Shown here one piece after another: positions 24,482 through 33,729 of a DNA stretch of 44,708 nucleotides. Origin of the DNA: Escherichia phage Ayreon. The notes below the pieces were generated by a model, which saw only the letters and a program-made list of their open reading frames with translations, made no database searches and was not told the DNA's origin. The position numbers and the translations under genes are program-made. Within the stretch, counting starts at the first letter, position 1. Every line of letters starts with the position of its first letter. The stretch lies in sequence record MF807953; one strand, 5' to 3'.

Positions 24482-24844
24482 TTAAACGAATGCCATTGCT
24501 GATAAGCGGTTGGCTCCGTCTTGAATACTGTCGTTATCGCCACGCTCGATCGCTTCTGCGACTTGGCGCATTAAAAGCACTGCTTGGCGGGCATTTGCCA
24601 TAACTCTTTCATCGTCCCAAACACCGACTTGAAGCAACTTCGTAATGATATCTGCAGTGGCGTCAGAAAGATCGGCAATTTCAGCGAATGACGGGTTAAA
24701 GTCGCGTAGTTGCTCAACCGATTTTGCGTTTACATGTTTCACAAACCATGCAGAGACTTCTTGGATTTTCCAGTACAACTCTAAAGCTAAATCATTACTG
24801 TTAACATTAGCAGCACTATAAATACTAGCAACGTTTGAGTTCAT
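24482..24844 (-). CDS. Hypothetical protein (120 aa), AT-rich accessory gene
   Basis: 120-aa minus-strand ORF in visibly AT-rich DNA, directly upstream (same strand) of the 42-aa ORF; I recognise no family. Confidence 0.5.
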   Translation of the reverse strand: MNSNVASIYSAANVNSNDLALELYWKIQEVSAWFVKHVNAKSVEQLRDFNPSFAEIADLSDATADIITKLLQVGVWDDERVMANARQAVLLMRQVAEAIERGDNDSIQDGANRLSAMAFV

Positions 24845-24966
24845 TGTTTGTTCGTTTCCAGCTGGTACCCATAAATTGGGACAAATCCTAGCTTATTGGA
24901 AAATTTTTATCCACAGTATTTGGTGTTTAATGAATATGGGGCTTAAAGAACAAATTTTCAACTGCT

Positions 24967-24996
24967 TTGAGCGATTATATTGAAAGGCGGTATAAT
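24967..24996 (+). promoter_or_regulatory. Candidate sigma70 promoter (TTGAGC - 18 bp - TATAAT)
   Basis: Perfect -10 TATAAT at 24991-24996 with a -35-like TTGAGC; no CDS follows, and a 16-bp GC palindrome lies about 65 nt downstream. Confidence 0.35.
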
Positions 24997-25140
24997 TTTA
25001 TGTCAACTAGTATAGCAATAAGAAGTAAAAATTCACTTAAAGTCATAATATTTCAGTAGGGAGCCGCGGCTCCCTTGCGTATCTTTTTGTCACTTCACCG
25101 TCTGGTCGGTGTCCTGCTGAGACCTCTAACATCCTGTTTT

Positions 25141-25613
25141 TGTTTGTGTTGTACACCGCCCAATCAACAGTGTCAATAGAACAAAGATTGCTGCATGTAC
25201 AAATGTTCTTTGGCTACAAATACACCTACTGATCATGTTCTGCTATGCTCTGATACCTCCAAAATGTACAATCAGCGGCATGAATTTTTCTTTGTACATA
25301 TGATTGTACATAATCAAAGAGACAGCAATTATGACAAGCCTTTTGGCCGCAGAGGTAGCGAAAAGAAGAACCTTTGCCATTATTTCTCACCCCAATAATT
25401 AAGCCAAAATTAAAGCTCTTTTACTCTTTCAAAATCCTTTCAGTTAATTGAGGTTGAGCCATATAACTCATTTAAATACATTTAGTTATGTGGCTTCTTT
25501 AATTGAAAATTCTTTCATGTAACTTTAAATCGATCTGCTTGCTTTCATCAAAAATCTGTACATGTGCTTGTACATAATGTACAAAACAGCAGAGGTGTTT
25601 TTTTATTTGTACA
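25141..25613. promoter_or_regulatory. Array of nine TGTACA motifs upstream of int (candidate protein-binding / att arm region)
   Basis: TGTACA occurs at 25141, 25187, 25256, 25284, 25296, 25557, 25569, 25578 and 25608 within about 470 bp, including the repeated unit TTGTACATAAT, in AT-rich non-coding DNA ending at the int start. Confidence 0.5.
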
Positions 25614-25622
25614 AGGTGAGTA

Positions 25623-26840
25623 ATGGCGCTGTCTGATGCGTGGTTGCGTTCAGTCGTTGGAAAGGAACGTGATAAGGTTTTGGTTAAATCCGATCGTGAT
25701 GGTCTGTCTGTCAGAGTATCACCGAAAGGTCGCGTAGTGTTCCAATATCGTTATCAATGGGCAGGGAAAGGTGAGCGCCTTGATATCGGAACTTACCCGG
25801 CAACTGGATTAAAAGAGGCCAGAGAAGAAGTTATCCGTCTCCGTGGTGAACTCGAGTCAAACCGCAATCCACGATTAGTCAGGCAGGCTGAAAAACGAAA
25901 AGCTACTGAAGCCATGACGGTAGAGTCTGTGATCCGTGCCTGGTATGAAGCATATTGTGTAAAAAATAAAAAAGGTTCTGAACAGATACTCCGCTCGTTT
26001 GAGCTGCACCTGTTCTCTAAAATCGGGAATATCCCTCACGATGCAGCTACATTGCATGATTGGTTAGAAGTCCTGGAGCCTCTTAGCACTAAGACTCCAG
26101 CAATAGCAGACCGATTGCTAATTAACGCAAAGCAGGCCCATGTCTGGGCGTATAAGAGAAAGCTCATTGAAACTCGCCCACTGTCGGATATCACGGGTAA
26201 AGATATGGATATCCGTAAAGGTCAGAAGAAACGGTTTCTGACACATGATGAAATTAAAATCCTTTATGCTGCGATCGATGGTTCTCGAATGGTTCCTAAA
26301 TACCGGGCCTTCATTAAACTATTGCTGCATTTTGGCTGCCGTAGTTCAGAGCTAATTACCGCCAGGGTGGACGATTTTGATTTCATTAATAAAGTATGGA
26401 CTGTACCACCAGAACGACATAAGACTGGGGAGATAACAGGCGAACCGCTAAAGCGGCCCATTATTGAACCGGTTGAAGAGCTTATAAAGTACGCTATTTC
26501 TATGAACAATGGTTCCGATATGCTTTTTACTAAGGAAGGAAGCAGGGAACCCGTTGGTCGGACATCATTGCAGTCGCTGCCTTACAATTTAATGCAGTAC
26601 GCATGGCGGCGTTTGGGGTATCAATTCCCTCATTGGTCTCTTCATGATTTGAGGCGAACAGCACGAACAAACTTTTCTGATCTTACTGCGCCTCATATTG
26701 CAGAAATAATGCTAGGTCATAAACTGCCAGGGGTATGGCAGGTTTATGACAAGAGCGATTATTTAGATGAACAGCGTAAAGCTTACCAGGCATGGTGGGA
26801 GAGAGTTGAATCGATAGTTACTTGTACTTGTTCAGACTAG
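25623..26840 (+). CDS. int: Tyrosine integrase (P4-type, with N-terminal arm-binding domain)
   Basis: 405 aa; N-terminal region typical of the P4-like integrase arm-binding domain (LSDAWLRS..GLSVRVSPKG..FQYRY); catalytic-domain features RSSEL, HDLRRTART and terminal Tyr region VYDKSDY. Confidence 0.9.
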   Translation: MALSDAWLRSVVGKERDKVLVKSDRDGLSVRVSPKGRVVFQYRYQWAGKGERLDIGTYPATGLKEAREEVIRLRGELESNRNPRLVRQAEKRKATEAMTVESVIRAWYEAYCVKNKKGSEQILRSFELHLFSKIGNIPHDAATLHDWLEVLEPLSTKTPAIADRLLINAKQAHVWAYKRKLIETRPLSDITGKDMDIRKGQKKRFLTHDEIKILYAAIDGSRMVPKYRAFIKLLLHFGCRSSELITARVDDFDFINKVWTVPPERHKTGEITGEPLKRPIIEPVEELIKYAISMNNGSDMLFTKEGSREPVGRTSLQSLPYNLMQYAWRRLGYQFPHWSLHDLRRTARTNFSDLTAPHIAEIMLGHKLPGVWQVYDKSDYLDEQRKAYQAWWERVESIVTCTCSD

Positions 26841-26973
26841 AACTGACATTTTGCATAGGCAGAACGCAATTATGCATATTGCGGTATAATCCCCTTCTTA
26901 AAACTGTAAGAACTGCTTGCTAATCCTTGCAGTTTTTGATTATAACATTTTTATTTGTTTATTAGGATTTTTG

Positions 26974-29106
26974 ATGGAACTGTTACAGGAACACGGGGCG
27001 ATACTTAAAGTTGTAATCATGCCTACTACTGGGGAACAAACCATAATCCAAGGTTTCGATACTGGCCTCCTCAACCCAGAGATATCCAACATTCTTTTTT
27101 TATTGGCCAAAACACCAAAAGAAATTAGTGAGATTTTTGTCAATGAAAATGATAACTTTCAGCCTACTCTAAGCGGGCTAAATCCTATTTTTTTAATATC
27201 TAAAGAAAATCTTGAAAAAATACCAGATATTTATCAAACGCCATTTTGCTTAATTTTTTGTGCTAAAGAAGATTTTTCGTATTTTTGTGCTTTAAAAAAA
27301 CATTTTGCTATACCACCTATAATTTGTTGCAATTCTAAACGCGCTGATCTACCACTTAATAAGATTAATAGTATATACTCATTTGATAAGGTGCTCTTCT
27401 CTCGGTTGAAATTCATTGAGGATAAAATAAGAAAAAATCACAGTGAAAAGAAAATATCAACGAAGTTGAAGCGAAGAGGGGCTTTATTTAATAAATCACC
27501 TTGGAGATCGACGCTTAACAATTCAACACTACCCAATGAGTTGTTAATTGAATCACTTGGCTATATGCTATCTCCACCAAAAAGAATTAAAGATGGTAGT
27601 AGCAAAAGAGAGTTTATAGAAATAATACTTCATAGCGTTGATGCATACACCGAATGTTTAAAGGAATTAGATATACCACTTCCAACGGAAGTCTTACTTT
27701 TTGCTCCGGGTATGCACTCTTTTTTATATGATAAAAATAATGACTTTTATGAGTTAATAACGGAAAATTTATCCACAATTGAGAAAAAATTCCTTATTGA
27801 TGGAGTGTTGAGGAATCCAGGCTATTCTGGAATTAGACTTGATATAAATTCAGATAGAAAAGAACTTTTTAAAAGTCCTGCTTTCCGTTACCTCACCTCA
27901 CTAAGACGAGCTGAAATGCGATTAACAACAGCTGCGATTACTTTATTTAGCATAAATAAAAAAATCCCAGCAATAAGATTGCCAAATGCAATAAATCATT
28001 ACTCCAATTATTTGAAAAATCTTGAAGATCTTGCAACTTCTTCTGGGATAAATAGTGAAGCATTCATCACTAAATCTAAAGCATTCAATACTGTTATTCG
28101 AAGAGCCCTTGGTTGCAAGTTGAGAACATATATAAGTAAAAACTATAGCGATTTGTCCTTTGTTTGTGATGTACCATTGGATTGGATTAGGTTTAATAAC
28201 ATACCTATAATGTTCAGTCATGAGATATCAAGAATAAATGCTACGCCTGGTAACGTTCTTCTACAGAGCGCCTCTGCTTTTCCGCGCGTTTTAGTAAAAG
28301 CATCTGAGTTGAGAAAGGTTTTAGTTATACGTTCTTTTGAGCCTGATGATCACTTAAAGTTCATATTAGAGAACGCAATTGAGATATTTAAAAAACAGAT
28401 GCCAGATCTTGATTGCGAGATTATTGATGTTAGATCGAAAGCTGAGTTTATTGATGCTCTAAATCAATATCAAGGTCATATTCTTGTTATGGATTGTCAT
28501 GGAAACCATGATGGCAATGGGAGTCATGGATGGTTAATAATAGGTGAGGATAAAGTGGACACTTGGAGTTTGAGAAAAATAGCAAGAATTCCTCCTATCG
28601 TAATTCTGAGTGCATGTTTAACATCTGCCCTAAGTGGTTCTCATGCCTCTGTTGCTAATGGCTTCGTTATAAGTGGTGCATTAAGTGTCATCGGAACATT
28701 ACTGCCTGTAAATGCGATAGACTCTGCTGTTTTTGTAAGTCGGTTGATCTACCGGTTTTACGAGTTTCCTTCGACGCTATCTACAAATTTTACACATGTT
28801 AATGTAAGGCTTTTTCTTTCTGTTTTTCTTAGGATGTCCTATGCAAGCGATTTAATAAGAGGATTTTTATCTGAAGATTTGATACCGAATAATTCATGGA
28901 AGAAAGATGCAGTTGATATTAACATGTATATAAACATGCTTCACCATGATTGGTATGATTATGTAATTAACAAATTGACGATGTTAACGGGGCTCACGAA
29001 AAAAGATGTACTTGATTTTATCGATAGAAAATTATTCATAACCGAAACTATGTGCTATAGCCAAATTGGATTTCCAGATGCAATCACAATTAGTCTTAAA
29101 GATTGA
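26974..29106 (+). CDS. Large cargo protein with C-terminal CHAT/caspase-like protease domain
   Basis: 711 aa from MELLQEHG. Strikingly low GC with Asn/Lys/Ile-rich composition. The C-terminal region has a caspase-fold His/Cys dyad signature: strand plus HG in ILVMDCHGNHDG and strand plus Cys in PIVILSACLTS, followed by GFVISGALSVIGTLLPVNAIDSAVFVSRLIYRFY, typical of CHAT domains. The N-terminal ~500 aa have no features I recognise. Confidence 0.65.
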   Translation: MELLQEHGAILKVVIMPTTGEQTIIQGFDTGLLNPEISNILFLLAKTPKEISEIFVNENDNFQPTLSGLNPIFLISKENLEKIPDIYQTPFCLIFCAKEDFSYFCALKKHFAIPPIICCNSKRADLPLNKINSIYSFDKVLFSRLKFIEDKIRKNHSEKKISTKLKRRGALFNKSPWRSTLNNSTLPNELLIESLGYMLSPPKRIKDGSSKREFIEIILHSVDAYTECLKELDIPLPTEVLLFAPGMHSFLYDKNNDFYELITENLSTIEKKFLIDGVLRNPGYSGIRLDINSDRKELFKSPAFRYLTSLRRAEMRLTTAAITLFSINKKIPAIRLPNAINHYSNYLKNLEDLATSSGINSEAFITKSKAFNTVIRRALGCKLRTYISKNYSDLSFVCDVPLDWIRFNNIPIMFSHEISRINATPGNVLLQSASAFPRVLVKASELRKVLVIRSFEPDDHLKFILENAIEIFKKQMPDLDCEIIDVRSKAEFIDALNQYQGHILVMDCHGNHDGNGSHGWLIIGEDKVDTWSLRKIARIPPIVILSACLTSALSGSHASVANGFVISGALSVIGTLLPVNAIDSAVFVSRLIYRFYEFPSTLSTNFTHVNVRLFLSVFLRMSYASDLIRGFLSEDLIPNNSWKKDAVDINMYINMLHHDWYDYVINKLTMLTGLTKKDVLDFIDRKLFITETMCYSQIGFPDAITISLKD

Positions 29107-29213: not shown

Positions 29214-29408
29214 TTACTCAATAACTCCCGCAAATTTGTAAATCTTGCGTGATGCCCATTTATTTGGGCATGATTTAATATCAGGATCTGGAAAGTCTGG
29301 CCTGTATTTCTGGCCAGTTCTCCTGTTTACGCTGTTCCAGCGAAGAACTGTCGATACTGATACTCCACAGAAGTTGGCGACTTGTTTAGTTGTCATTAAG
29401 TTGTTCAT
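29214..29408 (-). CDS. xis: Excisionase / AlpA-like DNA-binding protein
   Basis: 64 aa with an HTH-like N-terminus (TTKQVANFCGVSVSTVLRW) and a basic C-terminus; located at the distal end of the leftward early operon near int. Confidence 0.7.
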   Translation of the reverse strand: MNNLMTTKQVANFCGVSVSTVLRWNSVNRRTGQKYRPDFPDPDIKSCPNKWASRKIYKFAGVIE

Positions 29409-32898: not shown

Positions 32899-32926
32899 AT
32901 TATGTATCTCAAGGGTACATTGTCAA
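32899..32926 (-). promoter_or_regulatory. Candidate pL-like early leftward promoter with overlapping palindromic operator
   Basis: Minus strand reads TTGACA - 16 bp - CATAAT directly downstream of the cI terminator; the 17-bp palindrome agatacattatgtatct (32893-32909) overlaps the -10. Confidence 0.5.
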
Positions 32927-32964: not shown

Positions 32965-33639
32965 TTAGGCCTTTATTTTGTATCTTCTTGGTTTTCCCGA
33001 GAAAATCACTGTACCAATTATAGAGCAATTACCGTTAATCTTAATGTAAGGCTCAGGCCAGTTTGGGTTTAATGCTTTGAGATAACGCTGTGTTCCATCT
33101 TCTATCAATCGCTTGAAGGTGGTTTCGCCTGTATCGTGCATCAATGCAATAACGTCGTCACCGTGGCAGGCAGGGACTTCGGGATCAACAAAAATCATGT
33201 CTCCAGGGCGGTACTCATCAATCATTGAATCACCAATCACCCGCAAGATATAAGTCATTTCGCCACAGGGTACAGGGCAGGGGTAAGTTTCTGCTGTGCT
33301 CAAATCAACCTCAGAATAGCCAACTTCTTTCCATGCTCCGGCCTGTACCCATGATATGACAGGGACTAACGTTATTTGTTTGTTAGTGATTGAAACATCA
33401 GGTTTTTTTGTGATGTTCGTGGTCTGGTGTTCTTGATCAAGCCATCCGACAGGCAGGTCGAAACATTTTTCGATGTGCCGCGCCATGCTGTCACCGATAT
33501 TTTTAGTAGCACCATCTCCCATAAACCTGCTGGTCTGGGTTGGCTCGCGATCAATCATGGTGGCAAAGGAAGAATTCCCGCCAACACCATCTCTCAGTTT
33601 TCTGGCGTTAGACCGCCGGATGTCATGGATTGTTTTCAT
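32965..33639 (-). CDS. cI: CI-like repressor (HTH plus S24 LexA-type autopeptidase domain)
   Basis: 224 aa; N-terminal HTH region, C-terminal S24 features (GDSM serine motif and a downstream Lys in FKRL); divergent from the cro-like gene. Confidence 0.85.
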   Translation of the reverse strand: MKTIHDIRRSNARKLRDGVGGNSSFATMIDREPTQTSRFMGDGATKNIGDSMARHIEKCFDLPVGWLDQEHQTTNITKKPDVSITNKQITLVPVISWVQAGAWKEVGYSEVDLSTAETYPCPVPCGEMTYILRVIGDSMIDEYRPGDMIFVDPEVPACHGDDVIALMHDTGETTFKRLIEDGTQRYLKALNPNWPEPYIKINGNCSIIGTVIFSGKPRRYKIKA

Positions 33640-33656
33640 AACGAAATTAAAACCTT

Positions 33657-33673
33657 TGTACCGATAAGGTACA
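33657..33673. promoter_or_regulatory. Candidate operator palindrome in cI-cro intergenic region
   Basis: tgtacc-gataa-ggtaca palindrome just upstream of the candidate pR -35. Confidence 0.4.
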
Positions 33674-33679
33674 AGTATC

Positions 33680-33707
33680 TTGAAGGTTCATTTCAATCAT
33701 GTAATAT
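33680..33707 (+). promoter_or_regulatory. Candidate pR early rightward promoter
   Basis: TTGAAG - 16 bp - TAATAT, about 20 nt upstream of the cro-like ribosome-binding site. Confidence 0.5.
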
Positions 33708-33729
33708 GTATATCGGAGGTACATATTGT

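What the first reader, a model, noticed from the sequence alone, without database searches (positions are those of the whole stretch)
25141..25613. Dense array of TGTACA motifs in the AT-rich region immediately upstream of int
Nine copies of the self-complementary hexamer TGTACA fall within about 470 bp, several as the extended unit TTGTACATAAT and as closely spaced pairs and triplets. In DNA of this composition one would expect well under one copy by chance. The array ends at the int ribosome-binding site. Candidate roles include integrase arm-type sites of attP, a repressor/activator binding array controlling int, or a recognition-site cluster for a DNA-modifying enzyme.
Basis: seen in the sequence. 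Interest (0 to 1): 0.5.

Follow-up and report, generated by a model that had tools for sequence, protein, structure and literature searches.

The report
Integrase arm-binding sites around phage attP
The cluster of TGTACA motifs is real. It is most likely the set of accessory ("arm") sites that this phage's integrase holds while inserting the phage into, or cutting it out of, the host prfC gene, which is an ordinary kind of element whose sequence had not been described for this integrase family in the papers I could search.

Summary
Nine TGTACA lie at 25150-25613, against 0.1-0.3 expected, and only five others occur in the 44.7 kb window. Other AT-rich stretches have none.

The array is not simply "upstream of int". 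It is two clusters flanking the phage attachment site:
- five sites on the left arm, then a phage-supplied substitute 5' end of prfC;
- the 20-bp core TTTGCCATTATTTCTCACCC (25373-25392), shared with E. coli prfC;
- four sites on the right arm, ending at the int ribosome-binding site.

The integrase has an N-terminal arm-DNA-binding domain. Seventeen of 20 non-redundant relatives (45-84% identity) keep the same layout: a pair of hexamers 12-13 bp apart 30-90 bp before int. Most with enough upstream DNA also have a single site 15-42 bp before int, and intact attP sites have a pair about 300 bp before int. The motif changes by lineage (TGTACA, AGTACA, GGTACA, TGGACA). An SXT/R391 element that also targets prfC has TGTACA pairs at the same distance from the core.

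The array travels with int, not with the cI/cro immunity region.

Best reading: integrase arm-type sites (about 0.8), probably also overlapping int regulation as in prophage KplE1. This is a new member of a known kind. No binding experiment exists.

The parts
25150..25155 (+). Distal TGTACA (TTGTACAC, 7 of 8 of the extended unit). Uncertain member of the P arm.
   Evidence: It lies outside the homology with phage cdtI, which begins at 25162, and inside a 67-bp segment similar to the CP4-57 ypjA-ypjF intergenic DNA.
25195..25202 (-). P-arm site ATGTACAA (TTGTACAT on the minus strand).
   Evidence: Conserved in phage cdtI.
25264..25271 (-). P-arm site ATGTACAA (TTGTACAT on the minus strand).
   Evidence: Conserved in phage cdtI.
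25292..25311 (+). P-arm pair TTGTACAT-atga-TTGTACAT. The hexamers are 12 bp apart and lie 80 and 68 bp left of the core.
   Evidence: Intact attP sites of relatives have an equivalent pair about 300 bp before int (L097, L099, L011, L175, L176). In the SXT/R391 element R997 the pair lies 81 and 69 bp left of the core.
25331..25402 (+). Surrogate prfC 5' end (MTSLLAAEVAKRRTFAIISHPNN*). After integration it is fused in frame to host prfC.
   Evidence: In lysogen NZ_CP025916 the annotated prfC CDS starts at this phage ATG.
25373..25392 (.). att common core TTTGCCATTATTTCTCACCC, identical in attP, attB (K-12 prfC), attL and attR.
   Evidence: Four-way alignment. A 14-bp duplication is annotated in the Stx2c prophage records.
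25426..25547 (+). Second repeat class: four direct CTTTCA at 25426, 25437, 25512 and 25542, between the core and the P' TGTACA sites. These are candidate excisionase (RDF) sites.
   Evidence: 4 copies in 122 bp, against 31 on both strands in 44.7 kb. Three are conserved in Trabulsiella and Pantoea although the surrounding DNA has diverged. Their position matches the TorI sites of KplE1 attL. The assignment to Xis is an inference.
25556..25575 (+). P'-arm pair CTGTACAT-gtgc-TTGTACAT. The hexamers are 12 bp apart, at -66 and -54 from the int ATG.
   Evidence: the pair is part of a 35-nt direct repeat of the P-arm pair, 80% identical. The pair is invariant in five aligned sequences. An equivalent pair is present in 17 of 20 non-redundant relatives.
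25577..25584 (-). P'-arm site ATGTACAA (inverted orientation), 9 bp after the pair.
   Evidence: Invariant in the alignment.
25607..25614 (.). int-proximal site TTGTACAA at -15 from the ATG, abutting the Shine-Dalgarno sequence.
   Evidence: Most relatives with enough upstream DNA have a single site at -15 to -42.
25623..26840 (+). int: tyrosine integrase with an N-terminal arm-DNA-binding domain (residues 3-90).
   Evidence: Pfam Arm-DNA-bind_3, Phage_int_M and Phage_integrase. Residues 1-80 match the solved arm-binding domain 3JTZ, E=1.4e-6. PHROG integrase.
29214..29408 (-). xis: HTH_17/AlpA-type excisionase (RDF).
   Evidence: PHROG 1553 excisionase, E=1.9e-35. Homologues 80-84% identical directly abut int in the Trabulsiella and Pantoea prophages.

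Best explanation
The window is a lambdoid E. coli phage in its excised (attP) configuration. The TGTACA motifs are the arm-type binding sites of its heterobivalent tyrosine integrase.

Layout. The N-terminal arm-binding domain of Int (residues ~1-90) is inferred to recognise the asymmetric unit TTGTACAT, whose core is TGTACA. Sites lie on both sides of the crossover:
- left (P) arm: four or five sites at 25150(?), 25195, 25264, 25292 and 25304, including a pair 12 bp apart;
- right (P') arm: four sites at 25556, 25568, 25577 and 25607, again including a pair 12 bp apart.

Mechanism. The core-binding and catalytic domains of Int act on the 20-bp core (25373-25392) shared with codons ~15-21 of host prfC. 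Int protomers bridge arm and core sites and fold attP into an intasome. DNA-bending proteins probably help. For excision, the AlpA-type Xis (29214-29408) probably binds the CTTTCA repeats between the core and the P' sites.

Consequences of integration. Integration splits the array. The P arm, with the phage's substitute prfC start, stays next to prfC (attR). The P' arm stays directly upstream of int (attL). The P' sites fill the last 70 bp before int, so Int occupancy probably also represses int, as shown for KplE1 IntS.

What is shown: the layout, the domain content of Int, the attP/attB/attL/attR relations and the conservation across relatives. What is inferred: which protein binds which repeat, and the autoregulation.
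For: 1. Enrichment is extreme and local. Nine copies occur against 0.1-0.3 expected, and none in other AT-rich DNA.

2. The sites flank a proven crossover.
- attP, attB, attL and attR align around one 20-bp core.
- In 701 of 5,426 E. coli genomes the region matches, in lysogens as two separate places. In the best-matching records the left part ends at window 25392 next to prfC.
- prfC is annotated from the phage ATG in a lysogen.

3. Int carries an arm-DNA-binding domain (Pfam PF13356; PDB 3JTZ). It belongs to the published SXT cluster of arm-domain integrases (PMC8138268).

4. The sites are conserved in a diverged background. In Trabulsiella and Pantoea prophages (Int 83-84% identical) all four P' hexamers are invariant while most of the arm is unalignable.

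5. The layout holds across the family.
- 17 of 20 non-redundant relatives have a hexamer pair 12-13 bp apart within 120 bp of the int ATG.
- 42.6 kb of control DNA has no such pair, and at most 1 locus shows one in 2,000 shuffles.
- Proximal sites lie at -15 to -42, and P-arm pairs at about -300.

6. The motif varies by lineage together with residues of the arm domain.
- The motifs are TGTACA, AGTACA/TGTACT, GGTACA and TGGACA(C).
- Positions 29, 37, 41 and 44 change with the motif. For example Q41 occurs with all [T/A]GTACA motifs, S with GGTACA and F with TGGACA.

7. The motif is uncoupled from the core target. L098 targets lepA but has TGTACA.

8. An SXT/R391 element (Int 39% identical overall, arm domain 55%) has TGTACA pairs 81 and 69 bp left of the core, against 80 and 68 here. 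It also has pairs on the other arm.

9. The array follows int, not the immunity region.

10. The order core, then second repeat class, then arm sites, then int matches the experimentally mapped KplE1 attL (PMC2951348).
Against: - No binding or recombination experiment exists for this element, and none was found in the searchable literature.
- The excisionase co-evolves with Int and is of the same HTH_17 type in all relatives, so comparative data cannot formally separate Int from Xis as the binder.
- The motif variants each represent roughly one clade, so the covariation with arm-domain residues rests on few independent events.
- No sigma-70 consensus promoter was found on the + strand in the P' arm, so the autoregulation part rests on analogy only.
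- No exact IHF consensus lies in the att region.
- Site 25150 is not conserved in phage cdtI.
Confidence: 0.8

Rival explanations
1. The TGTACA sites are bound by the excisionase (the AlpA/HTH_17-type Xis at 29214-29408), not by Int. They would serve to bend the arms for excision and to repress int.
For: - Winged-helix RDFs bind short direct repeats spaced about one helical turn apart. In KplE1 the RDF TorI binds attL next to the int promoter and represses it (PMC2951348).
- Xis homologues accompany Int in all relatives examined.
Against: - The sites lie on both arms with mirrored 12-bp pairs. The RDF sites mapped in KplE1 lie on one arm.
- A separate, lineage-specific repeat class occupies the position where RDF sites lie in KplE1: CTTTCA here, GTAACA in L099 and YAAGACA in L193/L220.
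- The motif persists between this phage and the SXT/R391 element. Their Xis proteins show no significant similarity (E=1.8), while their Int arm domains are 55% identical.
Confidence: 0.1
2. The array is an operator set for the phage CI or Cro repressor, or a CII-type activator, controlling int.
For: The putative operators in the cI-cro region are 19-mers WTGTAY-N6-GGTACAW at 32902, 33656 and 33706. Their half-sites resemble TGTAC.
Against: - Double dissociation. SfV has the same cI (99.6%) and the same three 19-mers but another int, and only 3 scattered TGTACA in 37 kb. Stx1a phage LC727891 keeps int and the four P' TGTACA but has a cI only 32% identical and none of the 19-mers.
- Spacing of the TGTACA pairs (12 or 9 bp) does not fit the operator geometry of 11 bp between GTAC cores. 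The 12-bp pairs are not found by the operator pattern even with 3 mismatches. The 9-bp neighbours at 25568 match only with 3 mismatches.
- The same motif occurs in an SXT/R391 conjugative element.
Confidence: 0.02
3. The sites are a cluster of targets for a restriction-modification or other DNA-modifying enzyme that recognises the palindrome TGTACA.
For: TGTACA is a 6-bp palindrome of the kind recognised by type II enzymes. This rests on general knowledge only.
Against: - Relatives carry non-palindromic AGTACA, GGTACA or TGGACAC at the same positions.
- The functional unit here is the asymmetric 8-mer TTGTACAT with defined orientations.
- Outside the att region, 5 copies occur, and the whole window has 14 against about 9 expected from shuffles. 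That shows neither avoidance nor enrichment.
Confidence: 0.01
4. The repeats are mainly promoter modules. A duplicated TTGTACATAAT-containing block would drive the surrogate prfC on the left arm and int on the right arm.
For: - A 35-nt direct repeat (25293-25327 and 25557-25591, 80% identical) precedes both start codons.
- The block contains CATAAT, which is close to a -10 hexamer.
- The phi80 record annotates a 'possible' int promoter overlapping its GTAC-type pair.
Against: - The consensus scan finds no + strand promoter at either block.
- No -35-like hexamer lies at the right distance in the window (inspection).
- This reading explains neither the inverted copies (25195, 25264, 25577) nor the lineage-specific change of the hexamer core.
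- It is compatible with, rather than exclusive of, arm sites that overlap promoters.
Confidence: 0.05

Closest known systems
Phage lambda attP arm-type sites (P1, P2, P'1-P'3), bound by the N-terminal domain of lambda Int
   Same: A short repeat, different from the core sequence, lies on both sides of the crossover. The integrase is heterobivalent and has an N-terminal arm-binding domain. An excisionase gene lies nearby.
   Different: - The motif differs. Here it is TTGTACAT with a palindromic core.
- There are eight or nine sites rather than five.
- int is transcribed away from att instead of towards it.
- The arm domain is of the Arm-DNA-bind_3/DUF4102 type.
- The target is the 5' end of a protein-coding gene, and the phage supplies a replacement 5' end.

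The lambda details are from established knowledge and were not tested here.
KplE1 (and HK620/Sf6) recombination module: IntS arm-type P' sites and TorI sites in attL overlapping the intS promoter (PMC2951348)
   Same: int is transcribed away from att. The order is core, then RDF sites in two blocks, then arm sites, then int. The arm site nearest int lies at the promoter or leader. The RDF is an AlpA/TorI-type HTH protein encoded separately from int.
   Different: - IntS is only a distant relative (Sf6-type integrases are about 22% identical).
- The KplE1 P' motif contains TAAA, not TGTACA.
- The KplE1 target is a tRNA gene.
- Here the int promoter is not identified, and repression is untested.
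SXT/R391 integrative conjugative elements: IntSXT and attP in the 5' end of prfC
   Same: - The host target is the same, and the element also supplies a new prfC 5' end.
- Both integrases belong to the same published cluster (PMC8138268).
- TGTACA(AA) pairs 12-13 bp apart lie on both arms, with the P-arm pair 81 and 69 bp from the core against 80 and 68 here.
   Different: - Int is only 39% identical (arm domain 55%).
- xis lies between int and attP, and int points towards attP.
- The extended motif is TGTACAAA in one orientation.
- The element is conjugative, not a phage.
- I found no paper in the searchable library that maps IntSXT arm sites.
Arm-binding domains of the Yersinia HPI and HAI7 integrases (PDB 3JTZ, 3JU0)
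   Same: Int residues 1-80 and 1-96 match these solved domains by sequence, with E=1.4e-6 and 6e-4.
   Different: Those integrases target tRNA genes. I did not compare their arm-site sequences.
Phages phi80, P27 and APC_JM3.2 (DUF4102 integrases 28-33% identical to this Int)
   Same: The layout is the same: a pair about 12 bp apart just upstream of int, with a GTAC-centred motif in each case. The motifs are GTACAC/GTACCC (phi80), NGTACA (P27) and GTACCAA (APC_JM3.2). P27 and APC_JM3.2 also have a third site nearer int.
   Different: The flanking bases, core sites and host targets differ. Their arm sites are read here from sequence only.

Membership tests
attP of a heterobivalent (arm-binding) tyrosine integrase | The integrase has an N-terminal arm-DNA-binding domain in addition to its core-binding and catalytic domains. 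| tested here: met
   Pfam Arm-DNA-bind_3 (residues 3-90), Phage_int_M and Phage_integrase. PDB 3JTZ match.
attP of a heterobivalent (arm-binding) tyrosine integrase | A repeated motif, distinct from the core, lies on both sides of a defined crossover. | tested here: met
   The core 25373-25392 is defined by the attP/attB/attL/attR alignment. Five sites lie to its left and four to its right.
attP of a heterobivalent (arm-binding) tyrosine integrase | The sites are conserved with, and specific to, the integrase lineage. | tested here: met
   - The sites are invariant in relatives with 83-84% identical Int despite diverged flanks.
- 17 of 20 relatives keep the pair.
- The motif changes with the arm-domain lineage.
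- The array follows int, not cI.
attP of a heterobivalent (arm-binding) tyrosine integrase | The Int N-terminal domain binds the sites directly, and the sites are required for recombination. | not testable with these tools
   This needs gel-shift or footprinting experiments and att-site mutagenesis.
SXT cluster of the IntSXT subgroup (prfC-targeting integrases) | DUF4102-type arm domain and sequence relatedness to IntSXT and the cdtI phage Int. | tested here: met
   Int is 99% identical to the phage cdtI Int, and the cdtI integrase is placed in the SXT cluster by PMC8138268. It is 39% identical to the Int of SXT/R391 element R997.
SXT cluster of the IntSXT subgroup (prfC-targeting integrases) | Integration into the 5' end of prfC, with the element supplying a new 5' end. 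| tested here: met
KplE1-type self-regulated integrase gene (att arm overlapping the int promoter) | int is transcribed away from att, with arm sites directly upstream. | tested here: met
   The P' sites lie at -66, -54, -45 and -15 from the int ATG.
KplE1-type self-regulated integrase gene (att arm overlapping the int promoter) | An identified int promoter overlaps the Int and RDF sites. | tested here: inconclusive
   No + strand sigma-70 consensus match lies in the P' arm. The promoter may be weak, activator-dependent or located upstream.
KplE1-type self-regulated integrase gene (att arm overlapping the int promoter) | Int and the RDF repress int. | not testable with these tools
   This needs reporter fusions with and without Int and Xis.
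CI/Cro operator set of this phage | The sites match the operator sequence and geometry and co-occur with the cognate repressor. | tested here: not met
   - The operators are WTGTAY-N6-GGTACAW.
- The 12-bp att pairs do not match that pattern even with 3 mismatches. The adjacent pair at 25568 matches only with 3 mismatches.
- SfV and an Stx1a phage give a double dissociation.
Restriction-modification target cluster | Strict palindromic recognition sequence and a genome-wide signature of avoidance or enrichment. | tested here: not met
   Relatives carry non-palindromic variants at homologous positions. The count outside the att region is unremarkable.

The most novel reading that the evidence does not exclude
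TGTACA pairs 12 bp apart may be a shared arm-site code for the whole SXT cluster of integrases. That cluster includes Cdt and Stx phages at prfC, SXT/R391 resistance elements at prfC, and relatives at lepA and other loci.

Two consequences would follow:
1. Integrases of a phage and an ICE competing for the same prfC site could bind each other's arms. They could then influence each other's excision, tandem formation or replacement. An unexplained phage shift at prfC in STEC clonal complex CC119 is described in PMC10132054.
2. In lysogens, Int bound to the P arm could modulate expression of the host prfC gene. That gene is then read from phage DNA carrying these sites 20-135 bp upstream of its new start codon.
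Probability: 0.2. Interest if true: 0.55.

Novelty: new member of a known kind. Interest (0 to 1): 0.3.

Why it matters
Arm-type sites are textbook elements, so the finding does not change how integrases are thought to work.

It does give a concrete, testable map of the attachment site of a phage group present in about 13% of complete E. coli genomes (701 of 5,426). Members of that group carry cytolethal distending toxin or Shiga toxin genes.

The same motif and geometry appear in SXT/R391 resistance elements. In the literature I could search, no arm sites had been described for them.

The map shows which bases to mutate to:
- block integration or excision;
- test cross-talk between phages and conjugative elements that share prfC;
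- build orthogonal integration tools from lineages with different arm motifs (TGTACA, TGGACAC, GTACCAA).

Tried and rejected
- **tRNA target.** ARAGORN finds no tRNA in the window. The target is prfC.
- **Structured RNA.** Rfam finds nothing in 24800-25700 at E up to 1.
- **Promoter overlap.** The consensus scan gives no + strand promoter in either arm. Hexamers I tried by eye had no acceptable -35 partner. The promoter question is left open.
- **IHF.** No exact WATCAANNNNTTR lies in the att region. Mismatched sites were not evaluated.
- **CI/Cro operators.** I found 19-mers in the immunity region with TGTAC-like half-sites and took the idea seriously. It was rejected on geometry and on the SfV and Stx1a double dissociation.
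- **Separating Int from Xis by comparing RDF families.** This was uninformative. All relatives have HTH_17-type RDFs about 30% identical to each other.
- **Native prfC regulation.** The K-12 prfC promoter region has no TGTACA, so the sites are not part of host prfC control.
- **First two viral-contig scans.** They returned only near-identical E. coli prophages. Putting a distant relative first in the alignment was needed to reach divergent loci.
- **Papers not held.** Asakura 2007 (phage cdtI) was looked up and is not held. The first SXT integration papers did not surface in the searches. I cannot exclude that they mention these repeats.
- **Not run.** Structure prediction and the large protein searches were skipped, because Pfam and the PDB sequence match already establish the arm domain.

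Full report
**1. What is there**

The window is a lambdoid E. coli phage. The int region is 98% identical to phage cdtI and 95-96% identical to Stx1a and Stx2c prophages inserted at prfC.

TGTACA occurs 14 times in 44,708 bp. Nine copies fall at 25150-25613. The stretch is 34% G+C. Markov models predict 0.1-0.2 copies, and 20,000 simulated sequences gave a mean of 0.32 and never more than 4.

That test is negative: the AT-rich stretches at 26.7-28.9 kb and 40.0-40.5 kb contain no copy.

**2. Anatomy**

The nine sites form two clusters:
- left cluster: 25150, 25196, 25265, 25293 and 25305;
- right cluster: 25557, 25569, 25578 and 25608.

Between the clusters lies a short reading frame starting at 25331, MTSLLAAEVAKRRTFAIISHPNN*. 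It mimics the N-terminus of release factor 3.

Inside that frame is the 20-bp sequence TTTGCCATTATTTCTCACCC (25373-25392). This sequence is identical in the phage, in K-12 prfC, and at both prophage junctions.

The lysogen data agree with this:
- In E. coli genomes the left and right halves of the region match at separate places, and in the best-matching records the left half ends at window 25392 next to prfC.
- RefSeq annotates prfC of a lysogen from the phage-supplied ATG.

So the region is attP. The left cluster is the P arm, the 20-mer is the core, and the right cluster is the P' arm. The P' arm ends 9 bp before the int start codon at 25623.

The native prfC promoter has no TGTACA.

The true repeat unit is longer than the hexamer and is asymmetric:
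- All six copies of TTGTACAT/ATGTACAA in the window lie in this region. The orientations are -, -, +, + on the left arm and +, - on the right arm.
- The other three sites match 7 of 8.
- Each arm carries a pair 12 bp apart. The two pairs belong to a 35-nt direct repeat that is 80% identical, with copies 264 bp apart.

A second repeat, CTTTCA, occurs four times in direct orientation between the core and the P' TGTACA sites.

**3. The proteins**

int (25623-26840) encodes a tyrosine integrase with three Pfam domains: Arm-DNA-bind_3 (residues 3-90), Phage_int_M and Phage_integrase. Its first 80 residues match the solved arm-binding domain of a CP4-like/HPI integrase, PDB 3JTZ, with E=1.4e-6.

The small gene at 29214-29408 on the minus strand is an excisionase (PHROG 1553, E=1.9e-35).

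In Trabulsiella and Pantoea relatives the homologous xis directly abuts int. The 729-codon ORF between int and xis here is therefore an insertion. It is a BovA (Borvo) defence protein (PADLOC E=2e-241).

**4. Comparative evidence**

*Close relatives.* Prophages in Trabulsiella guamensis and Pantoea stewartii have an Int 84% and 83% identical to this one. All four P' hexamers are invariant, and three of the CTTTCA repeats are conserved. Most of the remaining arm can no longer be aligned.

*More distant relatives.* I collected relatives with 45-56% identical Int from species genomes, IMG/VR, phage records and plasmid records. They keep the same geometry:
- a pair of hexamers 12-13 bp apart, 30-90 bp before the int ATG;
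- in most loci with enough upstream DNA, a single site 15-42 bp before the ATG;
- where attP is intact, a pair (or in two loci a single site) about 300 bp before the ATG, on the other side of the core.

*Statistics.* Of 20 loci that are non-redundant at 90% identity, 17 have such a pair within 120 bp of int. The three exceptions have a one-base-degenerate partner or single sites. There is no such pair in 42.6 kb of int genes and downstream DNA. At most one locus shows a pair in 2,000 shuffles.

*Motif variation by lineage*:

| Motif | Lineage |
|---|---|
| TGTACA | most lineages |
| AGTACA/TGTACT | two lineages (L097, L099) |
| GGTACA | one lineage (L009) |
| TGGACA(C) | a Klebsiella/Enterobacter/Edwardsiella group that targets lepA |

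*Covariation with the arm domain.* Residues at positions 29, 37, 41 and 44 change in step with the motif. These are few independent events, so this is supporting evidence only.

*Independence from the core target.* L098 targets lepA but has TGTACA arms.

*SXT/R391.* Element R997 has an Int 39% identical overall and 55% identical in the arm domain. It has TGTACAAA pairs on both arms. The P-arm pair lies 81 and 69 bp from the core, against 80 and 68 here. An integrated copy in Proteus mirabilis confirms the pairs on the int-side arm.

*Still more distant integrases.* DUF4102 integrases 28-33% identical (phi80, P27, APC_JM3.2) show the same layout with GTAC-centred motifs.

**5. Rival explanations**

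*CI/Cro operators.* The cI-cro region contains three 19-mers, WTGTAY-N6-GGTACAW, whose half-sites resemble the arm motif. I therefore tested the repressor idea.
- The immunity region is shared with SfV, which has a different integrase. SfV has the same cI (99.6%) and the same three 19-mers, but only three scattered TGTACA.
- Stx1a phage LC727891 has this int and the four P' TGTACA. Its cI is only 32% identical and it has none of the 19-mers.
- The array therefore follows int and not the immunity region. Its spacing also does not fit the operators.

*Restriction-modification target.* This does not fit. Relatives carry non-palindromic variants at the homologous positions, and the count outside att is ordinary.

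*Excisionase sites.* This remains the main rival. Three points argue against it:
- the sites lie on both arms;
- a separate lineage-specific repeat class lies where RDF sites lie in KplE1;
- the motif persists between elements whose Xis proteins are no longer recognisably similar, while their arm domains are 55% identical.

Comparative data cannot settle this formally, because the RDFs co-evolve with Int.

**6. Mechanism**

*Shown:* the attP structure, the arm domain of Int and the conserved geometry.

*Inferred:*
- Int protomers bridge the TTGTACAT arm sites and the core to assemble the intasome.
- Xis binds the CTTTCA repeats to direct excision.
- Int bound to the P' sites lowers int expression, because those sites fill the last 70 bp before int. 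This was demonstrated for IntS and TorI in KplE1, where the attL arm overlaps the intS promoter (PMC2951348).

The consensus scan found no + strand promoter in the P' arm, and no exact IHF site was found. Those details stay open.

**7. Relation to what is known, and novelty**

Smyshlyaev et al. place the cdtI phage integrase in the SXT cluster of the arm-domain IntSXT subgroup, whose members insert at prfC (PMC8138268). Prophages at prfC are well documented in STEC (PMC10132054).

In the searchable library I found no paper that maps arm sites for this cluster or mentions TGTACA in that context. Asakura 2007 is not held, and the original SXT papers did not surface in the searches.

The finding is a new member of a well-known kind of element.

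Its modest added value is a family-wide arm-site pattern, GTAC-centred pairs 12 bp apart, that extends to SXT/R391 elements.

Interest is 0.3. Confidence in the arm-site reading is 0.8.

Noticed in passing
window 26917-29106 (+): A 729-aa, low-G+C (~32%) ORF with a CHAT domain matches the PADLOC BovA (Borvo anti-phage defence) model at E=2e-241. It sits between int and xis. In Trabulsiella and Pantoea relatives xis directly abuts int, so it looks like an inserted defence gene.
   Followed up: partly
L011 2181-2500; L175 and L176 1200-1500; L098 200-300; L199 60-130: Relatives of this integrase (45-49% identical in those compared) target the 5' end of lepA instead of prfC. Their attP carries a surrogate lepA start (MKNIRNFSIIAHID...). 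The two targets are the homologous G1-motif-coding stretches of paralogous translational GTPases, so the integrase lineage appears to have moved between paralogous genes. The LepA identification is from my own knowledge of its N-terminus.
   Followed up: partly
window 25426-25547 (+): Four direct CTTTCA repeats (25426, 25437, 25512, 25542) lie between the att core and the P' TGTACA sites. Three are conserved in Trabulsiella and Pantoea. Other lineages have different repeats at the same place: GTAACA x6 in L099, YAAGACA about x6 in L193/L220/L222, and CCTCCGACA x2 in the lepA types. They are candidate excisionase sites.
   Followed up: partly
window 32902-32920, 33656-33674, 33706-33724: Three 19-mers, WTGTAY-N6-GGTACAW, flank cI (32965-33639, minus strand) and precede cro. 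The same set occurs in phage SfV, inside or next to its annotated 'putative operator region'. They are probably the OL and OR operators. Their half-site resembles the arm motif, which appears coincidental.
   Followed up: partly
window 24967-25090 (+): A promoter-like site (TTGAGC-18-TATAAT, 10 of 12) is followed about 70 nt later by a terminator-like hairpin (25065-25079). This could be a small transcript or a 19-codon ORF just left of the P arm. There is no Rfam match.
   Followed up: no
window 25100-25166: A 67-bp segment, absent from phage cdtI, is about 86% identical to the ypjA-ypjF intergenic region of prophage CP4-57. That region is present in most E. coli genomes. The segment contains the outlying first TGTACA.
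   Followed up: partly
L179/L180 (R997 attP) and L182 4160-4420: SXT/R391-family conjugative elements carry TGTACAAA pairs 12-13 bp apart on both arms of their prfC attP. One pair lies 81 and 69 bp from the core, as in this phage. I found no published mapping of IntSXT arm sites in the searchable library.
   Followed up: yes
L265, L266, L267 (phages APC_JM3.2, P27, phi80), 100 bp upstream of int: Integrases only 28-33% identical to this one show the same layout, a pair about 12 bp apart just upstream of int, with GTAC-centred motifs. The motifs are GTACCAA, NGTACA and GTACAC/GTACCC. APC_JM3.2 and P27 also have a proximal site. This suggests an old, widely shared arm-site theme in DUF4102 integrases.
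   Followed up: partly
window 25195-25398 (+): The 67-codon ORF annotated as orf31 in phage cdtI overlies the P arm. It is in a different frame from the surrogate prfC start and is probably not a gene.
   Followed up: no
L193, L220, L222, L249 (IMG/VR contigs), 100-450 bp upstream of int: Another group of relatives has the same TGTACA layout but sits downstream of a gene whose C-terminus reads ...GGGKPDLAQGGAP.... From memory this is alanyl-tRNA synthetase-like. It would be a third kind of target for this integrase family.
   Followed up: no
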